This document shows, one piece after another, positions 971-63,898 of a stretch of DNA of 64,000 nt (position 1 is its first letter; every line of letters begins with the position of its first letter). Position numbers and translations under genes: made by a program. This stretch comes from Pocillopora damicornis (taxonomy: Eukaryota): positions 186,001-250,000 of the forward strand of contig NW_020846801.1 in NCBI RefSeq assembly GCF_003704095.1. Direction: 5' to 3'. The notes under the pieces were generated by a model. That model saw nothing but the letters and a program-made list of their open reading frames with translations. It did no database searches and was not told the origin of the DNA.

Positions 971-1099
971 TGGATTTGTTCTCGATTTAAACTTGAACCA
1001 GTCTCCCGCCTGATGAACAAAGATGAACCAATCAAATCTTGTTTACTTTCTTGAAATCTATTGATAAGGGACATTGAAATTAGTATAAAGAAAAAGATA

Positions 1100-30243: not shown

Positions 30244-30355
30244 CACCGTCCGAGAAAGCGAAAGAAAAATGATAATACTCCTTCCCTATGTACAATTGAA
30301 ATGATATGACGTTTATAACGTGGGAGTGGCGGAGGTGCGGTGATCGTATGATTGA

Positions 30356-33294: not shown

Positions 33295-33353
<59 letters not shown>

Positions 33354-39367: not shown

Positions 39368-42300
39368 TGTATTACGAATCACAGAGGGCTTACTCACATC
39401 GACATGTAACGAGTTTCAGGAAAATTGCCAAAGAAAGAGACAACTCTGAAAACTGAAGATTTGGATGTCACGTCAGACAGTCTTATATTAGTGACAAGTG
39501 TAACCTAAAACTGAACGTGCCAGAGAGTTGAATCAAGAAACTATACTTATGTCAGCATAGCAAACATTACATGTCATCGTAAAATTAACAAAGAAAATTA
39601 AAATGTGGTACACTGTTGATTTTGCCTCTGCAGTTGAATCTATCAGTCACGCAATGCAAATTAAAATCAGACTTTCCTATGATGTCACGCGACATGGTAT
39701 AGTGTCAGGGTTATCAAGAGCAAGCATGGTTAAACGCAACTCACAACTTCCTTAAAGTGCTAGCCTGTTCAGACGTTCAATCAGTGAAACGAAGCGCGAG
39801 AGTAGCGGAGGAGTGACAAAAAAAAAAAAACAACAACAAAAAACCGCGAGGATTGGGTCGAGTCGTGCAATGAATAACTTTTCATGGAATGACTTGAATT
39901 GTATAATTTATGCGTGTAGAGCATAAAACACGCTGTTCAACACGTTTTCATGGCTTTTATAAAGGCACAGCCATTTTAATTTTTCACCTTTGTTTAATAA
40001 TGCGTTATCCTGAATATGGCATGAAGAAATAAACTGCCAGCCGTTTCCATAAGTCATAATAATTTTAACATGGTACCGAAACGGGCTATAAGACAATGGT
40101 TCGTAATGCGTGTAAGAGTTTTGTATTGACTGCTGTTCAAAGGTTCAAAGGCTATTCTTTCACGCATTACTGGAAAAACGAAGATTATTGAAAGGAAAGA
40201 CACATTGGAAACGTTTAATCTAAGAACTAATTTGCAGAAAAGTTTCTGAGTTAGATCTTACACTGTTTTATTTTATACATCATTCACTGCAATAAAAGTT
40301 TTGAAAATTATTTCTTATCTGGTAGAAGATAACATTCCTTTGGAATTTCCTTTATCTTTGTTCCTTTTTGGAAGAGATTTTTCAGCGAGTGAATACAATG
40401 CCCCGGATAAGTTCTGTCTACCTTCGCCGGAAACTAAAGCGCTGTTTCGGACCTTAAGAAATGAATTAAATCAATTTAAATATATGTTAATGAGGTCATT
40501 TGGTGGTTTGAAGGTGTCAGGGTCAGAATCAAAGGTTTTAAAAGGTGATTTTCATAAAAAAAACTTCGTGATAATAAGCCCAATTTATTGACGCTTCATA
40601 TTCAAATATCGTAAGTGGTTTCACATTCAAGAGGAACTGATAAAAATTAACTTGGGGCTTTCCGTGTTATTTCGTTCAAGGCTGGTACTAAAATAAACCA
40701 CCAAAAACAAAATGATAGTTTTTATAAACAACACAACGATGTCTGAAGAAGAAGAGGCCTGTTTGATACCAAATTAGCAAAATACTGTCCAGCCGCTTCT
40801 CATTTTTGTCTTTCACCTCTTTGTGCACAGATGAAGACAATAAAGGCGTAACCATCACCAAGTTGATAATACGAAATCGTTTCTCAACATACCAGTTATT
40901 TTATAAAAACTATTTTATAACAGTGAAATCCAAGGCATGAGCAGTGCTTACAGACTGGTGACGTGACCATAACATGATCGACATGAATTTTTCAGTTGTC
41001 GTTTTGTAAATCTTGTATTACACTTAACATCAAGGATCTCTCTACGAAAGAGCACAGCCCCCCAAACTGGCACATTAATGAAAGACAAGGGTAAGAAGCT
41101 TTTTGCTCATTTAAGTAAAGAATTTAAAATGATTTAGCTTGGCTGATTACAGAGTTCGAATATGAAGGTAGAATAGTCCTCCTCGACTGTAATTTTAACG
41201 AGTTATATTCATCAAAGCTATTGTGCTATTGAGGTTCAACATCCTCAAGATCCTCGCTTCTTTTGTTTCGTCTCCACGCATAAATTTTAATAAGATCAGC
41301 GATCAAGAAAGAAGCAAAAGTCAATCGGCTGAATATTCTACAAATCCCTATTAAACTGTGGGTTTTCTTTTCTTAACAAGGAAACAGGAAAATTATCATA
41401 AATATGGCAATAAAAACACTGCTTTGACTTTTTGACAACGGATGACCTTGAACCCTTTGACAAGTTTACGTTATCAGGCCAAAGACAAAAAATAAAGAAA
41501 AAAAAGGAAAATAGAAACATCCTCTGTTGAACAGTTCATTGTTAGTCTTATAGAGCTTGTTTTATACTCGTGTGTAGAGTTTTCCCATTATAAAGCGTAT
41601 TTGATAGGATAAGAAATGAGATGACCCTAACGATGTCTAACTGCCATTGTAGTCTGTTTTCATTCTACCCATGGGCGGTTATTCAGGTCGACCAGCCGTG
41701 TTTAGACTTTAAAAAGCCGGACTCCTATTCTGAGCTACTCCGAAGCCTCAGATACCCAAAGGATATGACGAGGATAATTGAATACATTTTCTCCGATCTG
41801 TTTCAGTTGGTGTTTGACACAGAATTGATCCGTAAGCTCTCTACTGTTATTGACTCTGAAAAATTAAGGATTTTTAAGTCTATTCAACCTGGATCAGTTT
41901 TGAAATGATTATTTTGCATGAAATTCAATGCATGAAAGGTTCTATCTTAGACACAATTTCTTTTTTAACTGTATCTTGGGATTTAACCCTGTGACCTATA
42001 AAGTCAATGATAGAACTGAGAAATGTTGTCTGAACTCTTGCGTCTGTGGAGGAAATCCTACAGTACTTAAATGTGGTACCTTTTATCATTTTCTTTTTTT
42101 ACAAAGTGAATTTTTGGATTTTTCTGGTAGCTGATAGTGAAAGGATGAAGTTAATTTTCACTGGTGACATAATTCTGTGAGGATTCGAGATAATTACCTG
42201 TTTTAACCTTGACGTTTATAAGATTGTATCGTTTTTCTCCTAACTGAGAACCTGTGTGTTAATGTCAAAAAAGATATCTACATTAACACAAACAAACAAA

Positions 42301-43173: not shown

Positions 43174-46100
43174 ATGATTATTTTATTACTGCTACGAAGC
43201 ACGCTGTTGCTTCTCGTAGCAAACTATTCTTTTGCCCAAGAATGGTACAGCCAAGACAATTATGGACCCATGTATTACGAGCCAAACACAGTGGAGGAAT
43301 TAAAACCTTCATTTGTGGAAAAGCGGCAGGCAGAGAGCTTAGCCACTGAATCAAAGTCTTTTTATTTGTCGGAGCACTCCGCGTCTAACGTCCGTGAAAA
43401 ACGAGACATAGGTGACGTGGACGCTAAAAAAAACAGTAGTGACGTCACGGAGTATACCACAAATGAAGGTGTTAATCACGTGGCTGACATGCCCGAGGAA
43501 AATGACCAATCATTTAACCCAGATAGCTCTCTAGAAGCGACCTCGCACAGTCCGACCAATGACAGCTATGAATATATGCAAAGTCCGACCAACAGCAGCT
43601 CTGAGTACGTGGAAAGTACTAACAACAGCAGCAATGAGTACATGGAAAGTCCTAACAACAGCAGCACTGAGTATGTGGAAAGTCCTAACATCAATGGCTA
43701 CGAAAACGCACAAGACGTTGCCAGTGATAGCTACGAATTCACACAAAGTGTTGCAAATAATAGCGTTGAATATGCTGCCGAAGATAGCCACGACAAAGCT
43801 CAAACCGTTGCCAATGATAGCTACGAATTCACTCAACGCATTGCAAATAATAGCGTCCAGTTCGCACCAAATGTTGGCAAAGACAGCTACGAAAACGCAC
43901 AAAACGTTTCCAACAGTAGCTACAGTATAACTGATTCCAACCAAGTGAATGAAATGCCGAATGAAACAATGAAAACCGGACCTGAAGGGACTGAAATGTC
44001 TCCATTAACACCCGACGTCATGCACAAAGGCTCGGCCGAGGGCAGCGCGAACGACGGTCGTATGGACGTGACAGAGGAACCAAAGGATGATGGCGCAGGA
44101 GACCTAGAAACCAAACCTGTCGATACAGCCCCTAGCCATGAGACCTCTGGAACACCTGACTTCATGGAGGAGGTCGACGAAAGCTCTGGCTCTGGAAATT
44201 CAAATGATCGAGAAAATGATGATGAGGAGAACAAAGCGAAAAATGGAAATAAAGACGATAGGAATAGGAATAGGAATAAAAGTGATGATAGTGCTAACGC
44301 CAGGAAAGAAACTAACGGAAGGAAAATGACGCCCACATCGGCAAGCCGGGGTGAAGATAGCAGTGGAAATTTCAATAACAGAGAAGTCGATGATTTGTTT
44401 ACAGACTACGACGAGGATGAGTATGAGGATGAACAACCGGTGAAGAGGCAAAATTTGGGTACGAAAATTATTAGATGAGTAAACTGTATCATTTTATACT
44501 TAACTTCCATTGAATTAGAGGATATATGAAAAGCAAACATCTGAACCACGGAAAAAGAGAGAGGTCTTTGAGGTTAGAAATCACAATTGACAAGCTAAAA
44601 TAGAGCCTAAACTTAGCTCAGTTAGTTTCAGTCAGTCAGTTAGTTTCTGTGCTACACCAGTATCGCAGAATAGTCCTTGGTTCGGATCCCATTCGAGCCT
44701 GACTTTTCCCAGGCTTAATTTTTACCACCATCAGCTTTGCGATGATCTGCATTTAATTGGTCAGAAGAACACTATGTGAATAAGAAGTGGCTAACTCTAA
44801 AGCTTCCTTCGTTTCAATTTGTAGCCTGGGGTGCTCCAAGACAGCAATATGCGTATTCCTCAATGCCATGTTGTCCATCAAACATGGTTTGTCCAGGTTA
44901 GTTATAAAATAAACCAGTTTACATTGCATTAATTTTTCATATTCCCCACCTCAACTCACTCTATTCACATTTCGCAATAGAAACATACTTTGCCTCGTAC
45001 ACATATCATCATCCAGTTATCGTATGCCACGAGAAGATGAGTTAAGAATCTCGTCACATATTCTAATCAAATACTATATTTCCGTCTTCCTTTTTCAGAT
45101 AAACCACCGTGTGTCCCTGACACTGGTGGTTATAAGGGTTTCCAAGGTTACATTAACTATCCAGGGTACCCACCTAATTACCAGTCCCAAGCTGTACCGA
45201 GCTTTCAGCCTCAAGTGGCTCCAACTTCGCCGCATTACGCGAATCCCGGACCTGCTGCCAAGAATAGCAAGGCAAACCCAGTCAAGGCACGTCCTACATC
45301 AGAAAAAGCTTCCACTAGAAAAGTCTCTTCTTGGGACCAACTGGGATCTGACAGGAATGCTTCACCACAAACGAAGGGTTTTATTTCAGACGCAGATGAC
45401 TACCATGAATTCAACGGGACGGAACAGAGCTTTGCCGGGTACGATTTTAAACAGAACGAAGACAAATTCTACAACAGCACTGGAAAACATGATGACGAAA
45501 ATAAAGAGTTTTTAGAAAAAAATGACTCGAATCCGCTGACAACGCAGTTGATATTAGAGAACGAAAATGACCATGTTCGAGAGAATAATTCTATTACACC
45601 AACTAAAGAGAACGATAAGGAAAATGTGAAACAACAGAAGTCCTCCGAAGAGCCAAATTACAAGGATGAAATCGAGAAAGAAGCCGTGGAACAAGAGAAA
45701 GAAGCTGATCGGATGGCTGAAAATGAAGAACATAAAGACGACGAGGACGACGACGACGACGATGATGATGATGATGACGACGACAACGAAGACGAAGACG
45801 ATGAAGATGATGATGAACGAAATAACAACGATGATGACCATCAGGGACAACACGCACCTGATAACAAAGGACAAAAGGATGACATATACAATCCTACAAA
45901 TCAATCATTTGCAGTCTCTCCAACAGTGCTTCCAGGAATGTGTCCACCTTGTCGTAAGTAATACCAAAGTGTTAATGTCATGGAATGTATAATCACGACA
46001 TCTCTACTGCTGTCATATCATAGATAAACAAGATAGGATTAGTGGGAAAATCATTTAGTAGTCGGATCACACTGTAATATTAAATCAAATTAAATTAAAC

Positions 46101-49100
46101 TGTCTACACGTGAGATTATATTAAAATGACTAATTCTTTTTTTTTTGTTTCCATTTTGCAGCAAAGCCAACAAAAGCGCAAGGTAAAGAAATCCAAAATA
46201 TTAACACAACATCTGTCATGTATTTATATTTACGAAATATTCCTTCAAGAAATCGCTAAGTGCTATTTTAGTCATAAACATTTGTGACATATAACTCATA
46301 GTCAGCAATAGTGTTTTCTTAAGGAAGACTTAGCAGTTAAAACACCAGGTCAATCTGTGCATATCGTTCAATTTTGTACTGATCCACTGCGTGATCGATG
46401 TTTTCGCTCAATACAAATTCACTCTTACCTTGGCCTTACAATGGAGAAGGGTTCTATTTAGATCATTGAAATCACTCCCAGCTTTGGGTTGACACTTTAC
46501 TTCTCATAATTAAATAAAGACAATTCAGTTTACACACACTTATGTTACGACATCGCTTAATCTAACCAGCGTTATGTTGCATTAACATCCTCTCAGCTTG
46601 TAGCGCCAAAATAGATCTGGCTTTCCTAATCGATGGTTCTTCAAGCGTTGAAAGATACGGTGTCGGAAACTTCCGAAAACTAATCGAATTTGTCCGAGGA
46701 CTGACGATGGGATTCGCCATTTCCAAAAGAAATACCCGAGTGTCCTTAACTGTGTATGGAACAAGACCGAAGATGATATTTAATTTCCGAAGGTTGGTTG
46801 TCTCATGAAAAAGTACTGTTATCATCTGTAGGAAATAGTTTAAAACTAGTGTAGGAAATACTTTAAAGCTAGTGTGAAATATATCCTTAAATCAATGATG
46901 TATTCGCTGTTGTAACTGTGATCAAGCTGCTCTTCAGTATAAGATGGGAAATCTGAACTCACTGGTCGCGATATCCAAATTAAATGACTTTTTTTGAAAT
47001 ATTCGTTGATGTTCAGTTCAATCACTCCACGGAAAACTGAAACGTTTAGAATGATTGTTTCGAACGAAAGTGGTATGACAGATTCCCCTTACAATGGAAA
47101 TAGTGATCATCTTTGACCTCCTTGTTAAAGTTAACATATCTGGTTTCCCATCTTTGAATTTCGAAGGGTGGATAATACTTATCCATCAGACAGCAGTGGA
47201 AGTTATCTGATGCCTGCTCTGGCTCTCGTATTTCCAAAAAATTTTTTCTATGAAAAAATTAAAGTAAATTGACAGATGTAGAATTTGATCATTGACTTTC
47301 GGTAATTTCAGATATCAGAGTAACTCATTGTTATTCACGGCTCTCAACCGGCCAATCTACTATCCACGGACGGGAGCGAGAACAGGTCGGGCTCTCAGCT
47401 TTGCCAACAGAAGGCTTTTCACGAGAAGCCGACGTGTTCGAGCTCGTAAAGTACTGGTGGTTATTACTGATGGTGGCTCAATCGATGACGTACATGGAAT
47501 CTCTAAGAGACTACGAGCCAACGGTATCACAATCTATTCAGTAGGAGTGGGAAGGTACTTCAACGCAAAGGAATTGGACTCGATGGCAACTGATCCTGAC
47601 AAGACGCACGTTTTCACGTCGGATTTTAAGCAGATACAGTACATCACAAACGATCTTAAGAAAGCGATCTGTTTGAGTAAGTATTCAACGAGCTTAAGCA
47701 CCAAACGAACTCACCGTGCGAGAAAAAATTGATTGGAGTCAAAGTCTCAACTCAGTCGATATTTTTTACATATTTGCTCACAGACGTACATCATCTAGCG
47801 GAGTGCAACATTGAGGTCATCTGTAGATCTATGAATGAAATGTTCAATCTGGATAACAATTATATTCATTGAATCACACTGCACAATACCTGTCGACTTT
47901 GTGCTTCCTTAGTAAAAAATATCTAGAAATAATTTTAAAACTAACCAATGTTCTATAAGGGTCCTATACCGTTAGATGTGTTGACCTATTATAAGCTTCC
48001 AAAAATTTGAGCTCCCGATTACCTCTCCTACTTTTCTCCAAAACACGTTCATCACACAAAGTCTTACGTGGACAGAAAAAAGCAAAAAACACGGATTTAC
48101 TCATCGACAGCATGTACTTGCCCACGGCGGAGAAAGAGAAGAGGATGTTGTCCTTCAACCTCTTTCTGATTCTGTAATTTGAACATTATGTAACGTATCT
48201 AATCTGTCATATACCCTGTTTAATGGTTAACCTTTTGCTGTTTAGGTGCGGGTGGTACTCTGTCAGTTTCAAAGCTTCAGCCATGTGTTTGCGGACCAAC
48301 TAAACCAGTAGGTCCTACAAAACCGGGTTAGTATGAAGATGTTAAGCTAAATGGTACCCTTCAAAATGTCAAATAGTAGTCTACAATTCTTCTAATATTT
48401 ACACTTGTTAGTCCCTTGATATGCGATAGTGGATTCGTTTCAAAACCTACAGCTTTAAACCTGTAGAGGTTACTCATATCATGTGATCGATCTCTTGGAT
48501 AGAATATATGACGCACAAACCTCAACTGTCCTTCTTTCTGGCGAAAGATAGTAGAGCGGAAAGCGTTCATTGGAAAGGATACTCTTGAGTAATAAATCCT
48601 ATGCATCTGAAGATTGACTGATGGACTTCTAACAATTCGCATGTTGTTATTGCAGTACCTAAGACAACACCGAAAAGAGGCGGCCCAGGTAAACCTGGAA
48701 AACCAGGTGGTCCAGGTGGTCCTGGTGGTCCCGGGGGTCCTGGTGGGCCTGGAGGACCGGGTGGACCAGGCGGCCCAGGAGGTCCTGGAGGGCCCAAACC
48801 TGGTACAACCACAAAGCCAACGAAAAATCCTCCAGGTGAGGAATTCACAACCCATCTTTCTATTACACAGTTTGATCATAGCACCGCCTGATGCTATCTC
48901 ATTCACGCTTTTAAAGGTAAACCAGGTGGACCTGGAGGACCTGGAGGACCCGGCGGACCCGGAGGACCTAGTGGCCCAGGTGGCCCTGGAGGTCCCGGAG
49001 GACCAGGTGGTCCTGGAGGTCCAGGTGGGCCCGGTGGACCTGGAGGACCAAAGACAACCCCAAGACCAGGGAAAACAACAAAGCCTCCAGGTAAGCCTGG

Positions 49101-52100
49101 AGGCCCTGGGGGACCTGGAGGTCCAGGAGGGCCTGGCGGCCCAGGAGGCCCAGGTGGTCCCGGTGGACCAGGCGGACCAACAACCAAGAAACCAGGTACG
49201 ACTTGAGCTTACTATGGAAGCTTTGAAAAAAATAATTCAAGGATTAGGACAAATAGTGTCAGTGAATAATACATTTTCTATTGACATGCACCTAAGCTGC
49301 CAATTGATGTTAGTGCCAAATTATGATATATTATGATCGTTATAGTTTTGAGCGAGATGCTAATTTACCAACTGATGGTAAAGGAGACCGGCAACTTCGT
49401 TGTATCATAACAATTATTACAACTATTGTTTTATACCAAATTTTTCTTGACGATATCAATGTGAGTCGTTTAGATACGAAAATAAAATGGATATCGTAGT
49501 TACAAAAGAAGGAAGCACCATTGTAGCCGTTGCACAACATTTCTTCCATAAATATCGAATGTGTTCATGCGGTGAAGACGCCTATGTAAAATTACTTCCT
49601 AGGAAAGTCTACAAGACCAACAAAACCAACAAAGAGACCTGGTAAACCTGGAGGACCCGGAGGACCTGGAGGCCCTGGAGGGCCTGGAGGTCCTGGAGGT
49701 CCAGGAGGTCCTGGAGGCCCTGGAGGTCCCGGAGGGCCTGGTGGAAAGACAACGCCCGTCCCAGGAAAATCTACCAAACCTACTAAGCCAACAAAGAAGC
49801 CAGGGAAACCTGGAGGGCCTGGTGGACCTGGAGGTCCTGGAGGCCCAGGTGGACCAGGTGGGCCCGGAGGACCCGGAGGGCCAGGAGGACCCAAAACAAG
49901 CCGTCCGGGAACACCAACAAAGCCAACTAAACCAACAAAGAAACCAGGTACACCAGGAGGTCCGGGTGGCCCGAAAGGTCCTGGTGGTCCTGGAGGCCCT
50001 GGGGGACCTGGTGGCCCTGGAGGGCCTGGGGGTCCAGGAGGTCCTGGAGGACCTGGAGGGCCAGGTGGTCCAGGAGGACCAGGTGGACCTGGTGGTCCTA
50101 CAACAGCATCTCCAAGAGCACCAACCAAGAAGACGACACCAACTCCTTATGCCCCAGGGAAACCCAATGGCCCTGGAGGACCAGGGGGACCTGGGGGACC
50201 CGGAGGACCCGGTGGCCCAGGAGGACCTGGAGGACCTGGTGGACCAGGAGGGCCGGGAGGTAATGTGTCAATGATATCGTCTTAATTGACTTATGAATAA
50301 TATCTTAATCAATAAAATCATACTGTAACAGAGGTTTTGATCTTGATATTAATTGTTAAACGTTAATTTGCTACTTAAAGAGGGCGATAGTGTCCTGGGT
50401 TCACGCCCTCCACCTTGGTTATTAAACACTCGGTTGTCCGTATTTAATTACTTTTAACTCTCTGTACGTTCACAATGTTTGTTCCTAATTATTTTTTTTC
50501 TTATGTGTCACTTAAAATGTAACGTGCATTTGAATATATCTTCATGTTGATTTGCCCCATAGAAATATTGATTATTGCTATACGCCTGCGGTTTCCCTTG
50601 CTCGAAAGAAGATTGTGATTGGTTGATTGGTAATCACGTGAGCCTGGATTAATCAAAATGTATCCCGCTCAAATTAAATTTTGACAGAATGTCAAAATTG
50701 TATCCTGATTCGAATACGTTTATTAAATGCGATCATTTTTTCAGGTTTTTTCACGTAATCAGAGCGTCGCTTAGGCCGGTGGTGTGATTGTAGCGAGATA
50801 TTTTTTAAACTTTGTTATCTTAACTCCTCGGGGATTCCAGAAAATTTTGATTTGTCGCTAGCTCTCCGCCAATTCTTAAAATTACGATGGACTAACCTGT
50901 GACGAAAAAGCAGCGCTCGTCTGCTTTATCGAAAGACGAAATCGAATACTGGTTTAGCAGAAGGACTACGAAAATACGGTTTTTTTAAAGGTACATTTGC
51001 GGTGTTTACAAAAAGTTGTACTATTATAAACGCTCCTTTTTTGCTAATCCACAATGTTCATCCTAAAAAAATTTTAAATGTATAACAGAGCACTTAGTGT
51101 CTGCTCCCTCGGGAAACAGTAAGTTTCTTCTCCAGAGAGTTGGAAGACTTCGTCTCAGGAAACATTGAGACTCTCGGGAAGACAAAACAAACTGATCTTA
51201 TCAGCAGCAGACATCAATTGCATTTTATCAATCGTTATCAAAAGCTCCTCGTGTTTACTGTCTCATGGTTTGTTTACATAGGTCCGGGTGGCCCAGGTGG
51301 TCCCGGGGGACCTGGCGGTCCGTACGGTCCCACAACAAAGAAACCAGGAAAACCAGGAGGACCTGGTGGTCCTGGAGGTCCAGGAGGACCTGGAGGACCT
51401 ACTACAAAGCCTCCTGGAAAACCAGGAGGCCCTGGAACCCCAGGCGGTCCAGGAGGCCCAGGAGGTCCGGGTGGGCCCGGTGGTCCTGGAGGTCCAAGTG
51501 GACCTGGAGGTCCAAATGGTCCCAAGACTACAACTCCAAGGCCAGGTGTGCCGACGAAAAAGCCAACCACAAGGAAACCGGGCACTCCAGGCGGACCAGG
51601 AGGCCCTAAGGGGCCTGGTGGACCCGGTGGCCCAGGAGGACCAGGTTTGTGATACGGAACGAGTCTTCTTATATGTTAAACGAACAAAATATAAGGAAAT
51701 CAAAGTTAAATGATAGTATTAAAAAGATCCTAGACGAGTGTTTGAACTCAATTTCAGCAGTCATGTCATACCAAGTTTGATGAATATAGGGTGACGCTTA
51801 CCTAAAGGGTTTTTTTGCCTTTTAAGAATCCTTACTTAAACTTGCTGTTTTGCTGGCAAATTGTGGTACAGGAAAGTAACAAAATTGTTAATTATGTGAT
51901 TCAATTAATTGACATCTGCGTTCCGTTTGATTGGCCGTGGTGCAGCTGCCACAATTTCCAAATATAGATAATGTAACGTTAAACCAGCTGGAAACCAGCC
52001 AAATAGTAAACCTTTATAACAGTACCGCTTAAGAAACCTGAAGCTCACATCATGTTACGGACGTTAAGAATGTAAGGGTCGTAATGAATTAAATAATTAA

Positions 52101-55100
52101 TGAATAATATTTATGAGAATATGTCAAGTAAAAAGATATTGCTCTATTTTCAACAGGCGGACCTGGAGGCCCGGGGGGTCCTGGAGGCCCAGGTGGTCCA
52201 ACAACTGCACGACCAGGTGTGCCTACCAAACCCACCAAACCAACAAAACGCCCAGGACGCCCAGGTGGACCAGGGGGTCCAGGAGGACCCGGAGGACCAG
52301 GAGGTCCTGGCGGACCTGGAGGACCTGGAGGACCCGGTGGACCTGGGGGTCCAGGAGGACCAACAACCGCCAGACCTGGGGTGCCAACAAAACCAACCAA
52401 ACCAACACAACGCCCGGGTAAACCAGGTGGACCAGGAGGGCCGAGTGGACCCGGAGGACCTGGAGGGCCTGGGGGTCCTGGTGGACCAGGTGGACCTGGG
52501 GGACCTGGAGGTCCGGGAGGACCAACAACTACTAGACCTGGTGTACCAACTAAACCAACCAAACCAACAAAACGCCCAGGTACGCCAGGTGGACCAGGGG
52601 GGCCAAAAGGGCCAGGAGGACCTGGAGGTCCAGGAGGTCCTGGAGGACCAGGAGGACCAGGTGGGCCTGGAGGACCTGGAGGACCAGGAGGGCCAGGTAC
52701 AGTGAGAGCTTTGTGCAATCCACAACACTATCTGCAATCCATAACACATTTTTAACTTTTATCAACGAGCCAGCAAATTTTAAAATGTTGCGATATATTA
52801 TATGCTCCTCTCAGAATGAATTCTTCGTCTTTGTCGTTAATGTTCGAATATTATGCGACTGTTAACAACTTTAAATTCATATTTGTTATACTACTTGGCG
52901 AATTGCGTTAATTTTGCAAAGTTCTGACCAACTAAACCCGGAGCACTCGTTATCAAGACAGTATTAGAGTATCAACATTTTTCAAAAGCGAACAATTTAG
53001 TCCTGATACAGTTGTTTAGATATCTCGTAAGTTTCTTCTGAAGTATCGCAACGAACATCACATGTCGAACACAACCTCCTGAACATGATATAATTTCCAA
53101 GAACTTAACCTACCTAACAAACTCAGATCTGAGTCAGAAGGATCCATTTACAACCCTGTGATAGGAAACGTGAATCTTAAACATCAAGTATTTTTTTCGA
53201 TAAATCTAGGTGGACCTGGAGGGCCGCCAGCAGGACAGCCTACAACACCCGTCACAAAACCACCCGGTACTCCAGGAGGTCCAGGAGGTCCAGGAGGACC
53301 TGGTGGGCCTGGTGGACCTGGAGGACCTGGAGGACCAGGTGGACCAACAGGACCAACAAAGCCAACAAAGCCACCTGGCAAGCCTGGAGGACCTGGGGGA
53401 CCAGGAGGGCCTGGAGGTCCAGGAGGTCCTGGAGGACCCACAACGAAACGTCCAGGAAAACCAGGGGGACCCGGGGGTCCAGGAGGCCCTGGAGGACCCG
53501 GTGGCCCTGGTGGGCCAGGAGGACCAACAACTAAACGACCAGGAACACCAGGTAAAAATTAAACCGTAACGGTGAAGCCAGCAGGAGTAATGCAATTGCA
53601 AAGCTGCCACTTTAATATGTTTTCGATAGAACAAGTAGTCATTCATCTATGGGAATTACTGTGTTTTAAATCTTTTGCTAAAGCTAGTAAACATTAATTG
53701 AAAGCTGAGAAAAATCGAGATTGAATTACGATGGCCAATGTTTTGAAAAATGCATCGAAACACTATCAAGATATTAGATTATGAAGAGATGAGCAATGAA
53801 AGCGAAAGTATGTCTCAAATATTATTCATTACTTTCCTAGAAACTGGAGAGGTTTTAATGTGTTTTCCTTTGCTGATATCGGTAGTTCATGTCTCTTCTA
53901 TTCAATTTGGCTTTTAAGATGCGATACATTATACAGCACAAAATATTCACTAGATTATTCTGAACTTTAGGTGGCCCTGGAGGGCCAGGCGGCCCCGGAG
54001 GACCAGGTGGTCCTGGCGGTCCAGGAGGTCCTGGAGGACCTGGAGGTCCCACTACAAAACGTCCAGGTTCCCCAGGAGGACCAGGAGGTCCTGGTGGGCC
54101 TACAACAAAACCGCCACCTGGGAAGCCTGGAGGTCCTGGGGGCCCAGGGGGACCAGGAGGTCCTGGAGGACCTGGAGGACCAGGAGGACCAGGAGGCCCA
54201 GGAGGACCAAAGACAAAGTCACCAAAACCAGGAGTACCTAAAACAACACCCACGACTAAACCACCAGGAAAACCAGGCGGTCCTGGAGGCCCAGGGGGCC
54301 CTGGTGGACCAGGAGGACCAGGAGGTCCTGGAGGCCCTGGGGGTCCTGGAGGTCCCGGGGGACCCGGAGGTCCAAAAACAACAAAACCAGTTCCTACGAA
54401 GAAACCAACGAAACGCCCGGGATCTCCCGGTGGGCCAGGAGGGCCAGGAGGACCAGGAGGGCCCGGTGGACCTGGAGGACCTGGAGGACCAGGGGGCCCT
54501 GGTGGACCAAAGACGAAACCTCCTGGTACTAAAACCAAACCTACCAAGTATGCACCAGGAAACCCTGGAGGTCCTGGTGGTCCTGGAGGACCTGGTGGAC
54601 CCGGCGGGCCAGGAGGACCGGGTGGGCCTGGAGGGCCACCAGCGAAGACCACGCCAAAAACACCCAAGACAAAAGCTCCAGGTCAGATCACAGAATATTG
54701 AGAAAAAAAAATAAAGGGCTGCTAATAATCATAAAAGTGTTACTGACTATTATCATAATCATAATGGTAAAATTAATGATAATGACAGTGGAATAGGTAA
54801 TTTGATAAATGGTAAATACACATCTGAGGGTTCCAACAGCGGCGGCACGTTGCACATTACTTTCAGAGTTAGCTTACTCAAAACGACTCGTTTATACTAA
54901 GAGAAGCAAAGATGCATACCTCGAAATCGCATACCGCGAAGAAGACAAAAGAAAAACTTATTATGGCAAAACTTAGAGAAATTATCACTTTGTGATTTTT
55001 CTTTAACAATACACCTTTGACAACGACAATGACGGGAAGTGAACTATAAATACTATCATACTTCGTTCCCCTTTTTCAGGCAAACCTGGGGGACCTGGTG

Positions 55101-58100
55101 GACCTGGAGGTCCGGGAGGACCTGGGGGACCAACAACAAAGCGACCAGGATCTCCGGGCGGACCTGGGGGACCTGGAGGTCCCGGTGGTCCTGGTGGACC
55201 TGGTGGTCCTGGTGGTCCAGGAGGCCCAGGTGGTCCAACAAAGAAACCTGGAAAGCCTGCAAAAACCACAACCAAACCCCCAGGAACACCTGGTGGTCCT
55301 GGCGGTCCGGGGGGCCCTGGGGGACCAGGGGGTCCAGGAGGACCAGGAGGCCCTGGGGGTCCAGGAGGTCCAGGAGGTCCAAATGGTCCTACAACTGCTC
55401 CTCCAGGAAAACCCGGAGGACCTGGAGGCCCCGGGGGACCAGGAGGACCAGGAGGTCCAGGCGGTCCTGGAGGCCCGAAAACGGCTCCACCTGGTCAACC
55501 AGGAGGCCCTGGAGGACCGGGTGGTCCTGGAGGCCCAGGAGGCCCTGGAGGACCGGGTGGACCTGGAGGTCCAGGATGTGTCATGCGCCCAGGAGCGAAA
55601 ACAACGCCAAAAAGCGGCCCAACAAAGCCTGGAGGTGCAAAGCCAACAACCGGAAAGCCTTGTATCACTATTCCACCAGGTAACGTGATAATCCAGCATT
55701 TCAAGGGAACGTTCCACGATCTTTAACCTTTTCTATCTTTGCTTTGCATCAACTTTTATTGTCATTTAACAGCTGTGTCCTTATATCTCAAAAAACTAAA
55801 ATGCTTGCATTTGTTCTGTTCCTACGTCTTGTTTGTGTCAAAACGATAACCTCGTGAAAGAACTAGTTTATCAAATTGTAACGCAGAATATAAAAACGAC
55901 TTTCTACGTGAAATAACTGCTTTCATTTTTATATTTGAGGCTTTACTGTCGTGAAGAAACCAACAACTATTCCTACGCGGCCAGTCGGACCATCTGGCCC
56001 CACAACAGGACCTGCTGCCACAACAGCGCCTAACAAAGGTATTATTGTTTTCCTTTTTCTCTTCAGTTGTGATTTAACTTTTAAGTTCAGCTTCATTTAC
56101 AAAAATTAATTTCGTCGCATTCCCTTGCTTTCGTAGCCTTCTCCTCTTACAGTAGTATAGTTACCAAAGATCCTGCTTTGTTTATGTCTCTAATCATACC
56201 AACATATTGTTCGCACATGGTTTTTGTGGAAAAAAGCCAGGACAAGTAAAACCAAGCAGACTAAACGTTAATATCATTTAACGACAAATTTTGCTGAGAC
56301 GTAATTATGAAATTATTTAAACAATGCTATGAATTAAAAAAACCATCGATTGTTCTACAGTGTGCAAAGTAAAGATGGACATTGGCTTCGTAATCGACGC
56401 AGCCGGCGGCCTTAAGAAAGTATTCCACTACATAAAGAAATTCGTCTTGGAATTGGTGGATTCCTTTACTGTCTCCAGTCAGAATGTCCGGATTGGTTTA
56501 ATTACGAACTCTTATCGCCCTGCAGTCAAGATAAGCTTTGGTCAGTTTAACAAGCCGACCCAAATAAAACGCATCACCCGCCTGCTACAGCCCGACGGTG
56601 GAGCACGCCTATCAGGAAAAGCGCTAACCCTTGCATTAAAGCGGCTCTTTCCCGCTAGCAAGGGCAAGAAAACGTTGGTTTACCTAACTGCGGGTAAATC
56701 GTCCGACCGAGTGCTTGGCCCAGTACAACAGCTTGTTGCTATGGGAGTAAATATCTTCAGTATCGGCGTTGGAACTAATGCTGATCTCAGTGAGATTCTC
56801 ACGGTAGCTAAAGATCCTCAGCACTCGTACAAGACCAACTTTAGAGGCCTGGGAACTATAGTGAAACGCATTAAAGACAAAGCGTGTGCAGGTTGGTATG
56901 CCTTTCCTGATTTGAGAGGCAATTTTGAAGGAGAAATTAAGGAGTGTCAGCAGACAGTCTATCAAAAATGGGAAAACCTGTAGCCTAATGACGTGACGTA
57001 ACATTTGTCATTGGTAAATTAGTGGAAGAAGTAAGTACAATGCAAACTAAAAGTGAGTCTCCTAATATTAGCAACAAAGAGTGTTACCAAACGACTGTCG
57101 TTTCATAAATACATGTTGGATTCTAATCATCACCATAAAAACGCACATTACTTTTAGTAAGATGAATAGAGTCAGATTTTTATATGACTCTCTTGTTTTC
57201 CCCCGCAGAGGCAGGAGGCAGTGAACAGGGACCGAAAAAACCCACTAAGAAACCAAGTAAGTACATGAGCAATTAACATGATTCCAGGGTTCACGTTTAA
57301 CCCCATTTCGAATTTATTAAATTTCTCTATCAACAGAACCACCGAAGGCTGTCGCTATTTTCCCACTGAACCAAAAGACTCGAGGAAAAGACATTGGTCC
57401 CCTGAGGAACAGCCCAGGACTAATATATGGTGTTCGACCCGCTCGTGGACCTAATGGTCAGCCTGGTGGAGCCATCAAATTCCCGAAATTTAAGACCGGC
57501 TATGTGGAGTTTCCGAACAGTGGGAAACTGGACACCAAGAATTCCATAACAGTGACTGCTTGGGTCAAACCGGATGCGCCAGGGAAAATAATTGAGTTCA
57601 GACCGAGAGGGGTGACTTTCGGCATTCGATCGCCTGATATTTTGTACGCTCGTTTTGTCCGCCGTAACGGTCGACCAACCAAAACTGTAAAAACAAAACG
57701 GCGGGGAGTTACCTTGCGACAGTGGAGTTACTTAGCCATTACCTATGACCAGCGAACGGGAATGGGAACTATTTGGCGGAACTCTCGACCCATTGCTTTT
57801 CAGAAGCTCGGCTGGATCAGGCTTGCTACAAAGAAACCTCTTAGGCTTGGAGGGTTGACCCGTGGTCGGCGACCATTCAGTGGCAGTATCACGTGTCTTC
57901 AAGTTTACAGCGATGCTTTGACTGGGCCCCAGATAAAGAATGTACAGAATGTTTGCTTTAAACCAGGTACTAATCACCAACCTCGACGTAAGATATACAC
58001 TTAAACCAATTGAATATTGAACAACAATCAACCTGACATTTTGTCCTGATGCTGCTCATTCCAAGCTGCAATTAAACCATTATTTTCAGCTCACCCACCC

Positions 58101-61100
58101 TCATAGTCTTGGATTTGAGAAAGGCCATATTACGCTAAATTCAAAAATATTTTATCTCTGTCAGTCTTAACAGTGAAGACTTAGGACACACGCTTTAATT
58201 CAAATTCTTAAGTTCTTCATCAAAGTAGAATGGGAATGTAGATATGTGGGCTAAGTTATAGAATATAAAGTAACCAGACACATTTTTTTGGTACAATAGC
58301 TTTTAAAGATACGGTGTGCTGCCATACTCCAGAATATTTTAGGAGTACGAGACACGCGTAGTGTACTTTTAAAAATATACCGGCGGAGTATTCGAGCATA
58401 GTCAAGACGAATACTCTAGGTGTGCGCGGGGTATTGTGCGCGACTTGAATACCCTAGGATTCTAAAGCACCACGATCACGTATTCCATACTCGAATACCA
58501 GAGATTACTTTGATTTTTGCGCAGTGTTAGCCACAGAAATGCATTTGGTTGTTTTATACCATACATATCGCGGGTTAATGTTTTTTATTCTGTTTCCAGG
58601 GCAGCCGACTCCCACCAGACCACCAACAGCCCCTGTTCCAGGTAGGAGAGCAATCGACGGATACCACCCAGGAGTTCTTATTTGAACTGATCTATTTTGA
58701 AGTCTAGATTTTATAAAATTTAATCCAAACATAATGTCTTCATCTGGCAAGAGAAGGTTTTTATCTTGGTATAAACACGGTATGACCAATTTAGAAGCGT
58801 TCCAACCTCCTGCACTCCGTCCGCATTTCAGACTGTTAAGCATTTTATCTTCTTGTTTTAAAGTTTTTGTACTCTGAAAATGATCCTGTTGTTGTTGCAT
58901 GTTACCAGCTCTACCTCCTGCGATGGCATTCTTCCCCTTGAAGTCTAAATATGGTGCCCGTGATATAAGCCCAACGAAAAACCGCCCGGGAAAAATCGTG
59001 GGTGCCTTACCAGCCCGAGGTCCTGACGGCCAGCGTGGTAGTGCTTATAAGTTCCGAGGCCGTCCCGATAGCTTCATCGAGTTTCCGAACAACGGACGAT
59101 TGGATGCAAAGGATTCTATAACCATTCTTGCATATGTAAACCCGGAGAGCGCTGGACCGATCTTCAATTTTAATCCCAAAGGATTTGGAGTGCATTTCTG
59201 GATGGTTCGAAAGAATGTTCTCTTCGCACGCTTTGTGAAAAGGTCCAAGAAGTTTACACGGCCTGTGGCTACGAACAGAGTGAAACCGGGCACTTGGAAC
59301 TGGCTTGCAGCTTCATACGATAAGAACACTGGGTACGCACGTTTGTTCGTGGATTCCAAAATCTCAGCTGAAAGAAATCTCGGCAGAATAAAGCTTGCCA
59401 CCAATTATCCCGTTAGAATGGGTGCACGAAAGGGAGATCGTCGCTTCTTCCGGGGGAAAATAACTTGTGTTCAAGTTTACAATGAAGCCCTGACAAGCCG
59501 GCAAATCCGAGCTGCTAGAAAGAGCTGCTTCAGACCAGGTTTGTCGCAGACCTATTTAATCTGATTTTAAATTTTATTCAAGGAAAATAGAGTTACTTTC
59601 ACTCTCTCTACAATGTTTTTCAGAAAATCGTACCTCTAATGAGTCTGAATGAGTCGCCAGTCAACATTTTAAGAGCAATAGAGTGTCTCTCTTTTCCGGT
59701 GCAGTCGATTTTACTGCAAGTGTTATTACTCCTAGCGCCTCATTATGGTCTTGAAGAGAGTTCCTTCGTAAAGAAAATGCTTAAAATGTTTGAATTAAAA
59801 CAAAATTATTTGAAACAATGTTAGTGTAAATGTTCATTTTAGACAAGTTCTTATCGAGTGTATTTTCTGTTTCAGGTAAAGTCAAGCCCACAAAGCCAAT
59901 TTCACCTGTTACCAAACCTACACCGGGTAAGTCTCGTTTCCTTTTTTTTTTCTACATCATAAAACTTAACAGTTGTAAGAGTCTTAAAAAACCGTTTCTT
60001 TAAGAAAATGTGTAAGATATTTTTTTCCTCTGTTCAAACAGCTATCCGTAACTTGGTGGCCGTGTACCCACTGGACGCTACTTCTGGTGCACGTGACCTC
60101 AGCCCTACCAAGAATCTTCCAGGAAAGCTTTCGAGTGTAAATATCGCTCCAGGCCCTGACGGCAAACCGGACACTGCATTGCGATTCTCTGGCAGTCCTA
60201 ACAGTTACATAGAGTTCCCAAATAATGGAAGACTGGACACCAGACGTTCAATCACTTGCATAGCATGGGTGTACAATGAAGGAAGGGGAGGGCCGGTGTT
60301 CCAATACGATCCACGGGGAGTGGGGGTTGGGTTAAGAATCATCGGCTTGGATCGAATTGAAGCGCTCATTGTCAGCCGAAACAGACGAAAGAAAATTCCT
60401 GTCGTGACTCGAAAGAGGTTCTTTAAGCCCAGGACTTGGACTTACGTAGGATTCTCGTACGATTTCCTTTCTGGTATTGTCACATTGTACGTTAATGCCA
60501 GGCCAGTCTTACGTAGGATCATTGGTCGAGTTCAGCTTCTTACTAACAAACCAGCCCGCGCGGGCTCAACCAGGCGTGGAAAACGATTCTTCCGCGGTCG
60601 CTTGTCGTGTATACAGGTGTACAGCAGAGCTCTGACCAGGCGCGAGATCATTGCAGTGAGAAAAAGGTGCTTCAAAGGAGGTATGATAGGTGAAACAGAA
60701 ATTAATTGAAAATGTAAGCCAGATTACCAGCGGGTTAACTTGTATGATAAATCCATGGCCAGTCTGTAGTCTCGTGTTTTTCAAATTGTTTCCTTAAGAA
60801 AATTTAATGAGTGTAATAACATTAATCGTATGCCTTTATTTTACCTTTTTATTGTGTATAGCATCGAAATGATGTTCAGAGAAATTCAACTCAGAAATCA
60901 GATCCAGTAACTTAGCAAAATTACGGTAGGAATAAGAAAGAGGCAAAGGAAAAACTGAGTGCAACAAACTTACTTGCACGGATTGATCTTACAATACTGT
61001 TTAAGTCATTTTGTATCATTTGTTTCTCATTTGCAGCCGGAATAATTCCAGGAAAACCTTCTACAGGTAAGAAGTGAATGTCATTGTTGCATAAATCACT

Positions 61101-63898
61101 CTTCGTTGTTCAGCGATATTTAGATGCGTTAATGTACCTATGATGATTTCAGATACCCCGACGCCTGTGGCTACATTCCCACTCAGTGGTGTACTCAGTG
61201 GACGGGATATCTCTCCAAATAAGAACCCACGAGCAAAACTCCGTAATGTGCGGCCAGACAACGGACCCGATGGTCTCCCTTCAGGTGCCATTAAGTTGAG
61301 AGGTAGTCGAGATAGCTATGTGGTGTTTCCAAACTACGGAAAACTGGACACAACGGACGAAATAACGATCACTGTGTGGGTGAAGCCCAAAAGCGCTGGA
61401 CCAATCTTCCATTATAAGCCCCAATCCTGGGGTGGAGTACATGTCTGGGTTGTAGGACGACCTGGTAATCGAAAGTTTTTCGTCCGATTCTCCACGCGTA
61501 ACGGCAAAACTGTTCCAGCACTAAGAAGTAGGAAAATCAAAATGGGACGATGGTATTATGTGGCTGTTACTTACGATAAAAAGAAGGGAGTTGGAACCAT
61601 TTGGAGAAATGGCTTCATTGATGCTCAGGTATTACAGACATAACAATAGACTGTTTTTACCAATTTAACACATTTGGACCCATTGTCAGCAATTAAGGAA
61701 AGCGATATGTTCACAGTGGTGATTACAACAGTATCCAGAAAAAAGTCTCGCACACAGAGTTCAATTTCCAACTAAACCTAATTTCTTTGCTTTTTTTTGC
61801 TGATAGTCGCAGTCTTACGTTTTAGTTTGTTTGTGTTGTTATCTTCGGCTGACTTTTAACCTTCTTTCCAGTACCCTTTCTCATGGAGAGTAACAGACGC
61901 AATAGGTTAATGAACAAAGCAGAGTATCAGTCATTAACAATATCATTTGTTCGCCATTTAGCGCCGTGTTGGAATTTACAAACTCGCCACTAACTACCCA
62001 GCTATTATGGGGCGAAAACCAGGGGATCGCCGCGTACTGAGAGGAAGCATTTCGTGTTTGCAAATCTTCAAGAAAGCTTTGATTGGACCACAGATTCGAG
62101 CACAGAAAAGGAAATGTTTCAGACGAAGTAAGAGCTGCTTGCTTACTCTTTTTATATAAGACTAATTTAAGTCAAACAGAGACAGACAGATGAACAGGAA
62201 GGGAAAGGAAAACAGACTAACTGACAAACGTACCTACAAACTTACAGACAAATGTGCTTAAAGAAAGATAAAAAGACAGACAGAAAGATCAGTGTATTAG
62301 TTTTCTTACATTTTACAACGTAAATTATCTGATACTGAACTTTTGTTTTCTCTGTATTTTCTCTTCCAAGAACCAAATCCTAAAAGGCCCAAGCCGAAGC
62401 CAGGTGGGTTGTTGCAATATATGTTTGTAAGTCTTAGGAGTGATATCAAAGAACTGCAAAGAGTCGACCACAAACATTTTGCGCCTAGTAAAGAAGGCTA
62501 AGGTTAAAGAGTTGATGATGACTCATTGATGAGTTGATTCACTTACACGGTGGGATCCGAGATAAGTACGAGATCATTTATTAGCTTGAGGCCTGGCAAC
62601 GATGACATAAACGAACCAAATGAACAGTTCCTAATTTCTGTTGCTCATACATGTGGTTTCTTTCCTTTATTATTTTGTCATTTGTTTTCAGTACGGCTTC
62701 ATCCTCTTAGTTTGTACAAAAGCGCTTCATGGGATATTTTTTTGTCTTTATTCTGCAGCTCAGCCGATGCTCATGGGGCTCTATCCGTTTGATCCAATCA
62801 GTAGAGGCCGAGACAGAAGCCCCAATAAAGCACCTAAAGCTTTGTTCAGCAACGTCGCTTTGACCAGTGGTCCCGATGGCCGCCCAAAATCTGCCGTTAA
62901 ACTGCGTGGCCTCCCAAACAGCTACATTGAAATACCCAATAATGGAAAATTGCGCACGACCAATTCCATCTCCATGTTTGCCTGGGTCAAACCTACAGGG
63001 ACAGCAGGACCAATTATCAACTACGGCAGAGGACCCGCCTGGGAGACACACCTGTGGCAGACAGACCCCAAAACGCTCTTTGTTCGATATGTGAAGATAG
63101 GAGGTGCCCCCACTCCGGCCGTTACTAAGGCAGCGCTGACGCGAGGCGTTTGGAATTTCGTCGGTACAACTTACGATGGAACTTATGCCACACTTTGGGT
63201 GAATGGTAAAAAGGTCGCTTCGCGTAAAATCAACAGCATTCGTTTGTCAACAATTGGACCAATAAGGATCGGAGTGAAGAACGGCGATAAGCGTTACTTC
63301 AAAGGCGCCGTAGCTTGTGTGCAGCTCTATCGAGTTGCTTTACAGAAAAAACAGATACGGAGAGCCATGAAAAGATGTATGAGACGTGAGTATCTCAAAA
63401 ATGGAATTGGTTTATGTGTTCTAGGTATTTCAGATTTAGCGCTGAGAAATATTTCAGTAAGAGAGGAAACATATTAAACTTCACCTTTTGGTGAATAAGT
63501 CGACTTGCATTTAACTTAAACGGATATAACCATATGAGAGCAGTTTTCCCATAATTCTTCTGGCAAAGAAATCGGATAAAATCTTGCTTTAGTCAATTAA
63601 ATTATTGTTAGCATAAGCAGATATATTATGACATTCCTGGAGAAACATTTAAAGATCAGAGAAGCCATCACTTTCTTCCTATTCAAAAGGGCGCGGCCCA
63701 AACTGTAATTGAACTTGGTAATCGCGCGAATTTCATATAGTTCTTGCTGATAAAATAAATAGAGAGATAAATGTTTCACACTTGAGGCTCTATACTTTTA
63801 CGTTTAGCAAAGTTGACCATTGATAACTATTTATTTAGGACGCCCGTCTGTTCCCCGTACCACTCCACCCCCACCGCCACCAACTCAGGCACCAGCAT
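43174..63898 (+). CDS. Giant secreted modular protein (acidic pro-region, VWA, (GGP)n/PTK rod, VWA, tandem LamG/ConA-like domains); 3' end beyond window
   Basis: Phase-consistent GT-AG exons: 43174-44458, 44825-44896, 45099-45953, 46162-46182, 46597-46792, 47312-47676, 48246-48326, 48656-48835, 48917-49195, 49603-50259, 51282-51644, 52157-52696, 53210-53551, 53971-54681, 55080-55679, 55940-56038, 56361-56891, 57209-57256, 57337-57966, 58600-58641, 58909-59538, 59876-59926, 60042-60680, 61037-61066, 61153-61628, 61962-62127, 62371-62403, 62759-63385, 63839-63898. That is about 10.6 kb of coding sequence with no stop reached. Signal peptide [21 protein letters not shown]. Confidence 0.82.
43549..43935 (+). 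repeat. Coding 33-bp (11-aa) tandem repeat, about 12 units
   Basis: [77 protein letters not shown] ... Confidence 0.8.
44610..44760 (+). mobile_element. tRNA-derived SINE-like repeat in intron
   Basis: A-box-like TAGCTCAGTTAG, then CACCAGTATCGCAGA, and B-box-like GGTTCGGATCCC. No intact cloverleaf. Confidence 0.45.
45737..45840 (+). repeat. Coding (GAY)n poly-Asp/Glu tract
   Basis: [33 protein letters not shown]. Confidence 0.9.
46597..47676 (+). other. VWA domain 1 of the giant protein (two exons)
   Basis: [17 protein letters not shown]...TRVSLTVY...RTGRAL...[11 protein letters not shown]...IYSVGVG...ELDSMATDP...IC. Confidence 0.9.
48656..55679 (+). repeat. Coding (Gly-Gly-Pro)n blocks with Pro/Thr/Lys linkers, eight exons, about 1,224 aa
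   Basis: GGN-GGN-CCN codon arrays confined to phase-1 exons bounded by plus-strand AG/GT sites. Confidence 0.92.
56361..56891 (+). other. VWA domain 2 of the giant protein (degenerate MIDAS)
   Basis: [16 protein letters not shown]...VRIGLI...SGKAL...[11 protein letters not shown]...IFSIGVG...AC. Confidence 0.85.
57337..63385 (+). other. Five tandem about 210-aa LamG/ConA-like (pentraxin-like) domains
   Basis: Units at 57337-57966, 58909-59538, 60042-60680, 61153-62127 and 62759-63385. Each has FPL...RDxSP...GPDG...SY(I/V)EFPNNGxLD...SITxxAWV...WxYxxxxYD...LxxNG...FxGxxxCxQxYxxAL...C. Confidence 0.8.

What the first reader, a model, noticed from the sequence alone, without database searches (positions are those of the whole stretch)
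43174..45953. Convertase sites and strong charge segregation suggest a cleavage-triggered assembly switch
Seen: the dibasic sites [15 protein letters not shown] (furin-type RxKR) and PVKR/QNL punctuate a D/E-rich N-terminus. Two of the products would begin with Gln, a possible pyroglutamate. From VWA1 onward the protein is very K/R-rich ([31 protein letters not shown]). Known: cnidarian minicollagens and toxins carry KR-ended propeptides. Inference: the polyanionic part neutralises or coacervates with the polycationic body in the vesicle and is released at secretion.
Basis: partly seen in the sequence, partly recalled or inferred. Interest (0 to 1): 0.7.

Follow-up and report, generated by a model that had tools for sequence, protein, structure and literature searches.

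The report
Giant positively charged coral matrix protein
This stony-coral gene encodes a predicted 6,200-residue secreted protein whose conserved cut sites likely remove an acidic leader, but that leader has only about 6% of the charge needed to neutralise the strongly positive body, so the protein more likely forms a glue-like matrix by binding negative polymers made elsewhere.

Summary
All three KR sites are present and kept in 15, 16 and 16 of 16 informative coral homologues, while three other dibasic pairs are lost. The LamG-type domains are strongly basic (net +26 to +40, against -7 to +13 for 16 relatives elsewhere in the genome). The gene runs past the window to a predicted 6,229 residues: VWA, Gly-Gly-Pro arrays, nine tandem LamG3 domains, WSC-like repeats and an Arg/Lys helix. 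Against the switch: the removable leader is net -55, the remainder +899; the most acidic block (poly-Asp, -48) lies after the last KR and would stay attached; and a paralogue with at least 26 equally basic LamG domains has a 20-residue, net +4 propeptide ending in the same KR/QN. Best reading: ordinary propeptide maturation of a giant polycationic matrix or adhesive protein, neutralised by an outside polyanion. Cleavage, cell type and partner are untested. I found no description of it in print.

The parts
41036..41090 (+). 5' exon, likely untranslated (start approximate)
   Evidence: RNA joint 41089 to 43166, GT..AG, in 2 of 4 runs
43174..43236 (+). Predicted signal peptide, residues 1-21; the next residue is Gln22
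   Evidence: Hydrophobic stretch read from the sequence, similar in homologues and the paralogue; no signal-peptide predictor was available
43237..44448 (+). Acidic propeptide, residues 22-425: net -55, 14 N-glycosylation sequons, no Pfam domain; 270-447 residues and net -44 to -79 in homologues
43321..43326 (+). KR site 1 (VEKR/QAE)
   Evidence: KR in 15 of 16 homologues that cover it; next residue Gln in 5, Glu in 11
43393..43404 (+). KR site 2, furin-type REKR/D
   Evidence: KR/D in 16 of 16; the P4 Arg is Leu in the full Stylophora record P0169
44443..44457 (+). KR site 3 with QNL, end of coding exon 1; predicted start of the mature chain at Gln426
   Evidence: KRQNL in 16 of 16 homologues that cover it; KRQNI before the same phase-1 intron in the paralogue
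44825..44896 (+).
   Evidence: RNA joints on both sides in 2 and 3 of 4 runs; module aligned in the paralogue
45386..45883 (+). Second acidic block, residues 549-714, net -48, with the poly-Asp/Glu run at 45737-45817; lies after the last KR
45941..45952 (+). CPPC motif (CPVC in the paralogue), possible interchain disulfide hinge (inferred)
46597..47676 (+). VWA1 on two exons, intact metal-binding motif (DxSxS, TDG), net +19
   Evidence: Pfam PF00092; RNA joint in 4 of 4 runs
48656..55679 (+). Gly-Gly-Pro arrays: 28 blocks of 3-14 triplets with Thr/Lys/Pro spacers; 1,224 residues, no Asp or Glu, 119 Lys+Arg
   Evidence: no Pfam match, collagen included, on the one exon scanned
56361..56891 (+). 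VWA2, metal-binding motif degenerate, net +19
57337..63385 (+). LamG3 (concanavalin A-like) domains 1-5 with Pro/Thr/Lys linker exons; net +28 to +33 each
   Evidence: Pfam PF13385 on the 4 single-exon domains; model pLDDT 95.8 and ConA-like fold matches; all joints in RNA
63839..63898 (+). Last exon inside the window; the gene continues about 19 kb beyond (LamG 6-9, VWA3-4, six WSC-like repeats, a 344-residue Arg/Lys helix of net +146, a final LamG)
   Evidence: RNA loose ends in 3 of 4 runs read the next exon in L001; open frame over 60 GT-AG exons

Best explanation
The gene encodes a predicted 6,229-residue secreted coral protein whose acidic 404-residue leader is likely cut off by a proprotein convertase at conserved KR sites, leaving a chain of net charge about +900 that would be held compact, and later cross-linked into a cohesive matrix, by an outside polyanion rather than by its own leader. 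Shown: the spliced reading frame in the window (apart from five joints inside the Gly-Gly-Pro arrays), the charges, the conservation of the three sites, and the paralogue's short non-acidic propeptide. Inferred: cleavage at KR/QNL gives an N-terminal Gln (likely pyroglutamate) followed by a four-Cys module that, with CPPC, would form disulfide links between chains; the basic lectin-fold and VWA domains and the Arg/Lys helix bind sulfated or carboxylated glycans or poly-glutamate; the Gly-Gly-Pro arrays act as a flexible spacer; the leader is a glycosylated, disordered solubility or sorting aid specific to this gene. The place of use (stinging-capsule matrix, gland-cell glue or tissue-to-skeleton anchor) is untested.
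For: Conservation: KR kept in 15/16, 16/16, 16/16 homologues; among the 12 most distant (34-57% identity, mean column identity 0.31) the other dibasic pairs KK85, RK377 and RK383 are kept in 0, 0 and 1. Paralogue on C3313: signal peptide, 20-residue net +4 propeptide, KR/QNI, same intron phase, same Cys module, VWA1 52% identical, 26 LamG domains of +23 to +37. Charge: -55 against +899. Basicity is specific: 16 LamG-family domains from 12 other contigs are -7 to +13, and VWA matches in three other genes are -14 to +11. One 9,999-nt RNA contig spans VWA2 to beyond the window. The domain fold matches carbohydrate-binding ConA-like modules (best Z 21.1, rmsd 2.5, 186 aligned; pentraxin Z 16.6).
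Against: No cleavage, partner or cell type was observed. Sites 1 and 2 lie in the conserved N-terminal block that drove the search, and the homologues are related, not independent; several loci repeat proteins. No homologue was linked to its own downstream body, so the body charge of orthologues rests on three unlinked VWA2-like fragments (+19, +23, +21). The long acidic leader, the poly-Asp block, the Gly-Gly-Pro arrays and the Arg/Lys helix are all missing from the paralogue, which fits a local shielding role for the acidic parts. The body holds 42 KR and 27 furin-type motifs not followed by Pro, so further cuts are possible. Exons beyond the window, the helix among them, and the paralogue's model were not checked with RNA. 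A shared fold shows no function.
Confidence: 0.55

Rival explanations
1. Local shielding switch (a narrower form of the first reader's idea): the leader (-55) and the poly-Asp block (-48) together shield one hot spot, most likely the Arg/Lys helix (+146), during transport; cutting off the leader would unmask it.
For: The acidic leader, the strong acidic block and the helix occur together in this gene and are absent from the paralogue; -103 against +146 is the right order, and 11 SxE and 4 acidic-context Tyr sites could add charge. Leader charge is kept at -44 to -79 while its sequence drifts.
Against: About half of that negative charge lies after the last KR and would not leave; about 750 further positive charges stay unshielded; the helix exon was not checked with RNA; the paralogue stretch has assembly gaps.
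Confidence: 0.2
2. Whole-chain neutralisation switch: the acidic N-terminus neutralises or coacervates the basic body in the vesicle and its release triggers assembly.
For: KR sites conserved and LamG domains strongly basic.
Against: 6% charge balance, at most about a quarter under an unrealistic modification ceiling; poly-Asp not released; paralogue without an acidic leader.
Confidence: 0.07
3. Polyprotein: the pieces between the KR sites are products in their own right, such as a 348-residue acidic glycoprotein that binds calcium or mineral, and two short N-terminal peptides.
For: Three sites rather than one; residues 22-95 are the best-conserved part of exon 1, more than a disposable spacer would need; Gln22 could be capped as pyroglutamate.
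Against: The large piece varies greatly in length and sequence; no Gly-Lys-Arg amidation signal is conserved; no product has been observed.
Confidence: 0.1
4. No processing: the KR sites are conserved for another reason and the whole chain works as a polar molecule, acidic end on mineral or calcium and basic end on tissue glycans.
For: KR count alone is weak (P 0.13 over residues 22-744); cleavage has not been observed.
Against: KR is kept where neighbouring basic pairs are lost, and KR/QN is kept across paralogues that share nothing else in the propeptide.
Confidence: 0.08

Closest known systems
Cnidarian minicollagens, including the long NvNCol-7 (PMC12549020, section 7 read)
   Same: Signal peptide, propeptide ending in KR (the KR motif is recalled), a Cys-bearing module right after it, and Gly/Pro triplet blocks.
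   Different: Four Cys (CC-x5-C-x5-C) instead of canonical terminal CRDs; Gly-Gly-Pro blocks without a Pfam collagen match; over 5,000 residues of VWA, LamG3 and basic modules; cnidocyte expression untested.
Flatworm adhesive protein Mlig-ap1 (PMC6410801, search listing and start of abstract only; details recalled)
   Same: Very large secreted multidomain protein with Lys/Arg-rich regions thought to give cohesion by binding a negatively charged partner.
   Different: Different domain set (recalled: C-type lectin and VWD there; VWA, LamG3 and WSC-like here); no sequence comparison was made; adhesive role here untested.
Cationic proteins with neutralising acidic propieces, such as eosinophil proMBP and defensin propieces (recalled)
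   Same: Acidic pro-part before a cationic mature part, removed by proteolysis.
   Different: There the charges are of similar size (recalled); here the pro-part covers 6%, and a paralogue lacks it.
Collagen VI, matrilin and other multi-VWA matrix proteins; Nematostella NvvWFAGGP (NV2.8259)
   Same: VWA domains. NvvWFAGGP is a Gly-rich VWA protein marking nematocyte state nem.1, 29.3% against 0.2% of cells (supplement rows).
   Different: General VWA hits are 22-37% identical and mostly neutral. A Montipora all-VWA record (XP_068757174.1) is also polycationic (+147) but has no LamG or Gly-Gly-Pro.

Membership tests
Proprotein convertase substrate | KR or RxKR site not followed by Pro, in an unfolded region of a secreted protein | tested here: met
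   signal peptide read by eye
Proprotein convertase substrate | Sites conserved above background | tested here: met
   15/16, 16/16, 16/16 against 0, 0, 1 of 12 for other dibasic pairs; paralogue
Proprotein convertase substrate | Cleavage observed | not testable with these tools
   needs N-terminomics or in vitro digestion
Neutralising acidic propiece (proMBP/defensin type, recalled) | Removable negative charge comparable to the mature positive charge | tested here: not met
   -55 against +899; ceiling -238
Neutralising acidic propiece (proMBP/defensin type, recalled) | Acidic propiece present wherever the basic body is | tested here: not met
   paralogue: propeptide 20 residues, net +4; 26 LamG domains sum +779
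Minicollagen | Signal peptide plus propeptide ending in KR | tested here: met
   the specific conserved pro-motif is recalled and was not scored
Minicollagen | Canonical cysteine-rich domains at both ends (six Cys, recalled) | tested here: not met
   four Cys at 444, 445, 451, 457; no Cys cluster at the modelled C-terminus
Minicollagen | Short Gly-X-Y domain of about 15 repeats flanked by Pro-rich regions (PMC12549020) | tested here: not met
   28 Gly-Gly-Pro blocks over 1,224 residues; no Pfam collagen match on 1 of 8 array exons scanned
Minicollagen | Cnidocyte-specific expression | not testable with these tools
   RNA runs are bulk contigs; the atlas supplement could not be read
LamG3 / concanavalin A-like lectin domain (PF13385) | Profile match above the curated cut-off and beta-sandwich fold | tested here: met
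   59-78 bits against 27.6; model and fold matches
VWA domain (PF00092) | Profile match; metal-binding MIDAS motif | tested here: met
   all four domains match (for the exons scanned); MIDAS intact only in VWA1
WSC domain (PF01822) | Profile match for the small basic repeats | tested here: inconclusive
   3 of 8 aligned members match, first member 14.8 bits against a cut-off of 27.8; Kremen1 at E 0.92
Mlig-ap1-type temporary adhesive | Giant secreted protein with long Lys/Arg-rich region | tested here: met
   344-residue helix, 43% Lys+Arg
Mlig-ap1-type temporary adhesive | Homology, and expression in adhesive gland cells | not tested
   sequence not fetched; expression not available

The most novel reading that the evidence does not exclude
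A two-gene family of giant, convertase-matured polycations (net about +900) is a structural half of an undescribed coral complex-coacervate glue or capsule matrix: in this member the cut at KR/QNL exposes a disulfide-linking head, a retained poly-Asp block grips aragonite or calcium, silk-like Gly-Gly-Pro arrays give stretch, and basic lectin-fold domains and a 344-residue Arg helix bind tissue glycans, making it a candidate tissue-to-skeleton or larval attachment tether.
Probability: 0.2. Interest if true: 0.8.

Novelty: new variant of a known kind. Interest (0 to 1): 0.48.

Why it matters
The molecules that glue coral tissue to skeleton or substrate, and those that build anthozoan sticky capsules, are poorly known (recalled). 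This gene gives a concrete candidate with unusual physical properties, hidden in databases as partial records with misleading automatic names (beta-mannosyltransferase 4-like, dentin sialophosphoprotein-like). It also gives a sharp, cheap test: a predicted pyroglutamate N-terminus at Gln426 and single-exon basic domains that can be expressed and titrated with polyanions. The propeptide processing itself is ordinary.

Tried and rejected
Search for full-length homologues: exon 1 against 750-2,140-residue proteins found none among 4,426 candidates; a LamG domain against 367-2,000-residue proteins found 1 of 772, an unrelated neutral architecture; the HMMER scan with VWA2 was filled by generic multi-VWA proteins, with three short probable orthologue fragments. 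These blanks are weak because the protein exceeds the searched lengths. Metagenome scan: 8 loci, 6 reach KRQNL with the same donor, 2 end before it, none reaches the next exon. Other VWA genes (C3843, C1472, C241) were checked as possible family members: near neutral and no KR/QN or Cys head found in the 11 stretches fetched. C4207 LamG genes are a different, neutral architecture. A search of the genome for further copies of the Cys head returned only this gene and missed the known paralogue, so it is uninformative. Fold hits to the ConA-like subdomain of clostridial neurotoxin binding domains (8-14% identity) were rejected as a sign of toxin function: it is the common lectin-type sandwich, over-represented in the PDB. 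The protein atlas gave only generic VWA clusters for a stored VWA protein. Earlier findings of this scan: none. No complex was predicted, since a diffuse charge interaction with a disordered chain is not what that tool scores. Expression level and tissue could not be read from contigs.

Full report
Setting. The finding covers the first coding exons of a large spliced gene on the + strand of G000 contig C3436. Named homologues of exon 1 come from Pocillopora meandrina, Stylophora pistillata and Orbicella faveolata, all partial records with automatic names, so this is a stony-coral gene.

Gene model. I placed 60 GT-AG coding exons by hand, 29 in the window and 31 in the next 19 kb; they give one open frame of 6,229 residues. 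All 14 joints from 55677 to 63839 appear in 3 or 4 of 4 runs, one 9,999-nt contig spans them, and loose ends in 3 runs read the first exon beyond the window.

Anatomy. Predicted signal peptide (1-21); acidic leader (22-425, net -55, 14 sequons, no Pfam domain); a basic stretch with four Cys (426-548, +7); a second acidic block (549-714, -48); CPPC; VWA1 with an intact metal motif; 28 Gly-Gly-Pro blocks without any Asp or Glu; VWA2; nine LamG3 domains; VWA3 and VWA4; six small WSC-like repeats; a 344-residue stretch with 147 Lys+Arg and one acidic residue, modelled from the single sequence as near-continuous helix (pLDDT 78.6, pTM 0.27); a final LamG. A LamG model (pLDDT 95.8) matches concanavalin A-like sandwiches: an arabinanase accessory domain (Z 21.1, rmsd 2.5, 186 aligned), the lectin-like subdomain of clostridial neurotoxin binding domains, pappalysin, pentraxins and CBM40. 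This names the fold, not the function.

The KR sites. All three are present and are the only KR pairs before VWA1. Shuffling gives weak support (P 0.022 over exon 1, P 0.13 over residues 22-744). Conservation is stronger: of 17 homologues, 16 cover each site (P0005 lacks the N-terminus, P0003 is frameshifted before site 3); KR is kept in 15, 16 and 16. In the 12 most distant, mean column identity is 0.31, 30 of 406 dipeptides are kept in at least 11, all three KR among them, while KK85, RK377 and RK383 are kept in 0, 0 and 1. Sites 1 and 2 sit in a generally conserved block and the rows are related, so this is not 16 independent tests. Gln follows site 1 in only 5 of 16 but site 3 in 16 of 16. 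The furin P4 Arg of site 2 is Leu in the full Stylophora record.

Charge. The body is strongly and specifically basic: LamG domains +26 to +40, pI 10.6-11.9, against -7 to +13 for 16 family domains that I picked from 12 other contigs among the 86 matches. But the removable leader is -55 against +899 for the rest; the RNA-supported in-window part alone (745-3536) is +335. Giving every Ser and Thr a phosphate and every Tyr a sulfate reaches -238. The poly-Asp block follows the last KR with no KR, RR or RxxR before VWA1, so it would stay on the mature chain.

The paralogue. Contig C3313 holds a related giant gene. Its first exon encodes a similar signal peptide and a 20-residue, net +4 propeptide ending KR/QNI before a phase-1 intron of about 490 bases; then come the same Cys module, a mildly acidic stretch (-13 over 381 residues), CPVC and a VWA 52% identical to VWA1. 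It has 26 LamG domains wholly inside the fetched stretches (sum +779) and 23 full VWA matches, but no Gly-Gly-Pro arrays and no match to the Arg/Lys helix in 95 kb that include some gaps. This model was not checked with RNA. So KR/QN is the old, shared feature, and a basic body is made without an acidic leader.

Mechanism. Most likely (0.55) a convertase removes the leader, leaving Gln426 as a capped N-terminus before a Cys head that would link chains, as the propeptide and Cys domain do in minicollagens (recalled). The mature chain would need an outside polyanion both in the vesicle and in the finished material, as recalled for the flatworm adhesive Mlig-ap1. Frame, charges and conservation are shown; cleavage, disulfides, partner and site of use are inferred.

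Literature. PMC12549020: I read the abstract and outline, ten passages, section 7 in full and matching supplement rows. PMC6410801, PMC8162421, PMC13581030 and the coral skeletal proteome papers were seen as search listings with the start of the abstract only. The paper reader closed, so the Stylophora atlas and other supplements, which may hold the cell type, were not seen. Ten searches turned up no description of this protein, and five homologue accessions had 0 hits in main texts; subscription papers and supplements are not covered.

Verdict. What remains is an apparently undescribed giant polycationic matrix protein with ordinary propeptide processing: a new variant of a known kind, interest 0.48.

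Noticed in passing
L001:546-618 and L001:1774-1848: Two tRNA-Lys(CTT) genes lie inside introns of this lysine-rich gene; the model uses 206 AAG and 295 AAA codons. Probably coincidence.
   Followed up: partly
G000:C3313:156000-240422 (L003, L004, L006, L011-L017), minus strand: Giant paralogue with at least 26 basic LamG3 domains and about 23 VWA domains, short basic propeptide, no Gly-Gly-Pro arrays; deserves its own entry.
   Followed up: partly
L002:6576-7610: Single exon encoding 344 residues with 106 Arg, 41 Lys, one acidic residue and no Pro, modelled as a long helix.
   Followed up: partly
P0043, P0085, P0160 (one search hits): Other polycationic multi-VWA proteins exist (net +147, +727, +163); P0043 is from Montipora capricornis, the other two were not looked up; P0085 has dozens of identical basic EGF repeats. 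Basic VWA arrays may be a recurring design.
   Followed up: no
window 43558-43920: Short internal repeats in the leader (NDSYEY/NDSYEF, SSxEYxES), each pairing a glycosylation sequon with Tyr-Glu; their number varies among homologues.
   Followed up: partly
L019:3176-3967: Downstream open frame that looks by eye like two galactose/rhamnose-binding lectin domains; whether it belongs to this gene or the next was not tested.
   Followed up: no
window 6393-9552 (both strands), 22362-30285 (-), 31855-33775 (+), 36397-39415 (-): Neighbouring genes recognised by eye only: an inverted pair of 2-hydroxyacid dehydrogenase-like genes, an acid sphingomyelinase-like gene, a C-type lectin membrane protein and an organic cation transporter-like gene.
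   Followed up: no
G000, 86 matches: This LamG3 subtype is widely expanded in the genome, mostly as one domain per phase-1 exon; only two genes examined carry the strongly basic form.
   Followed up: partly
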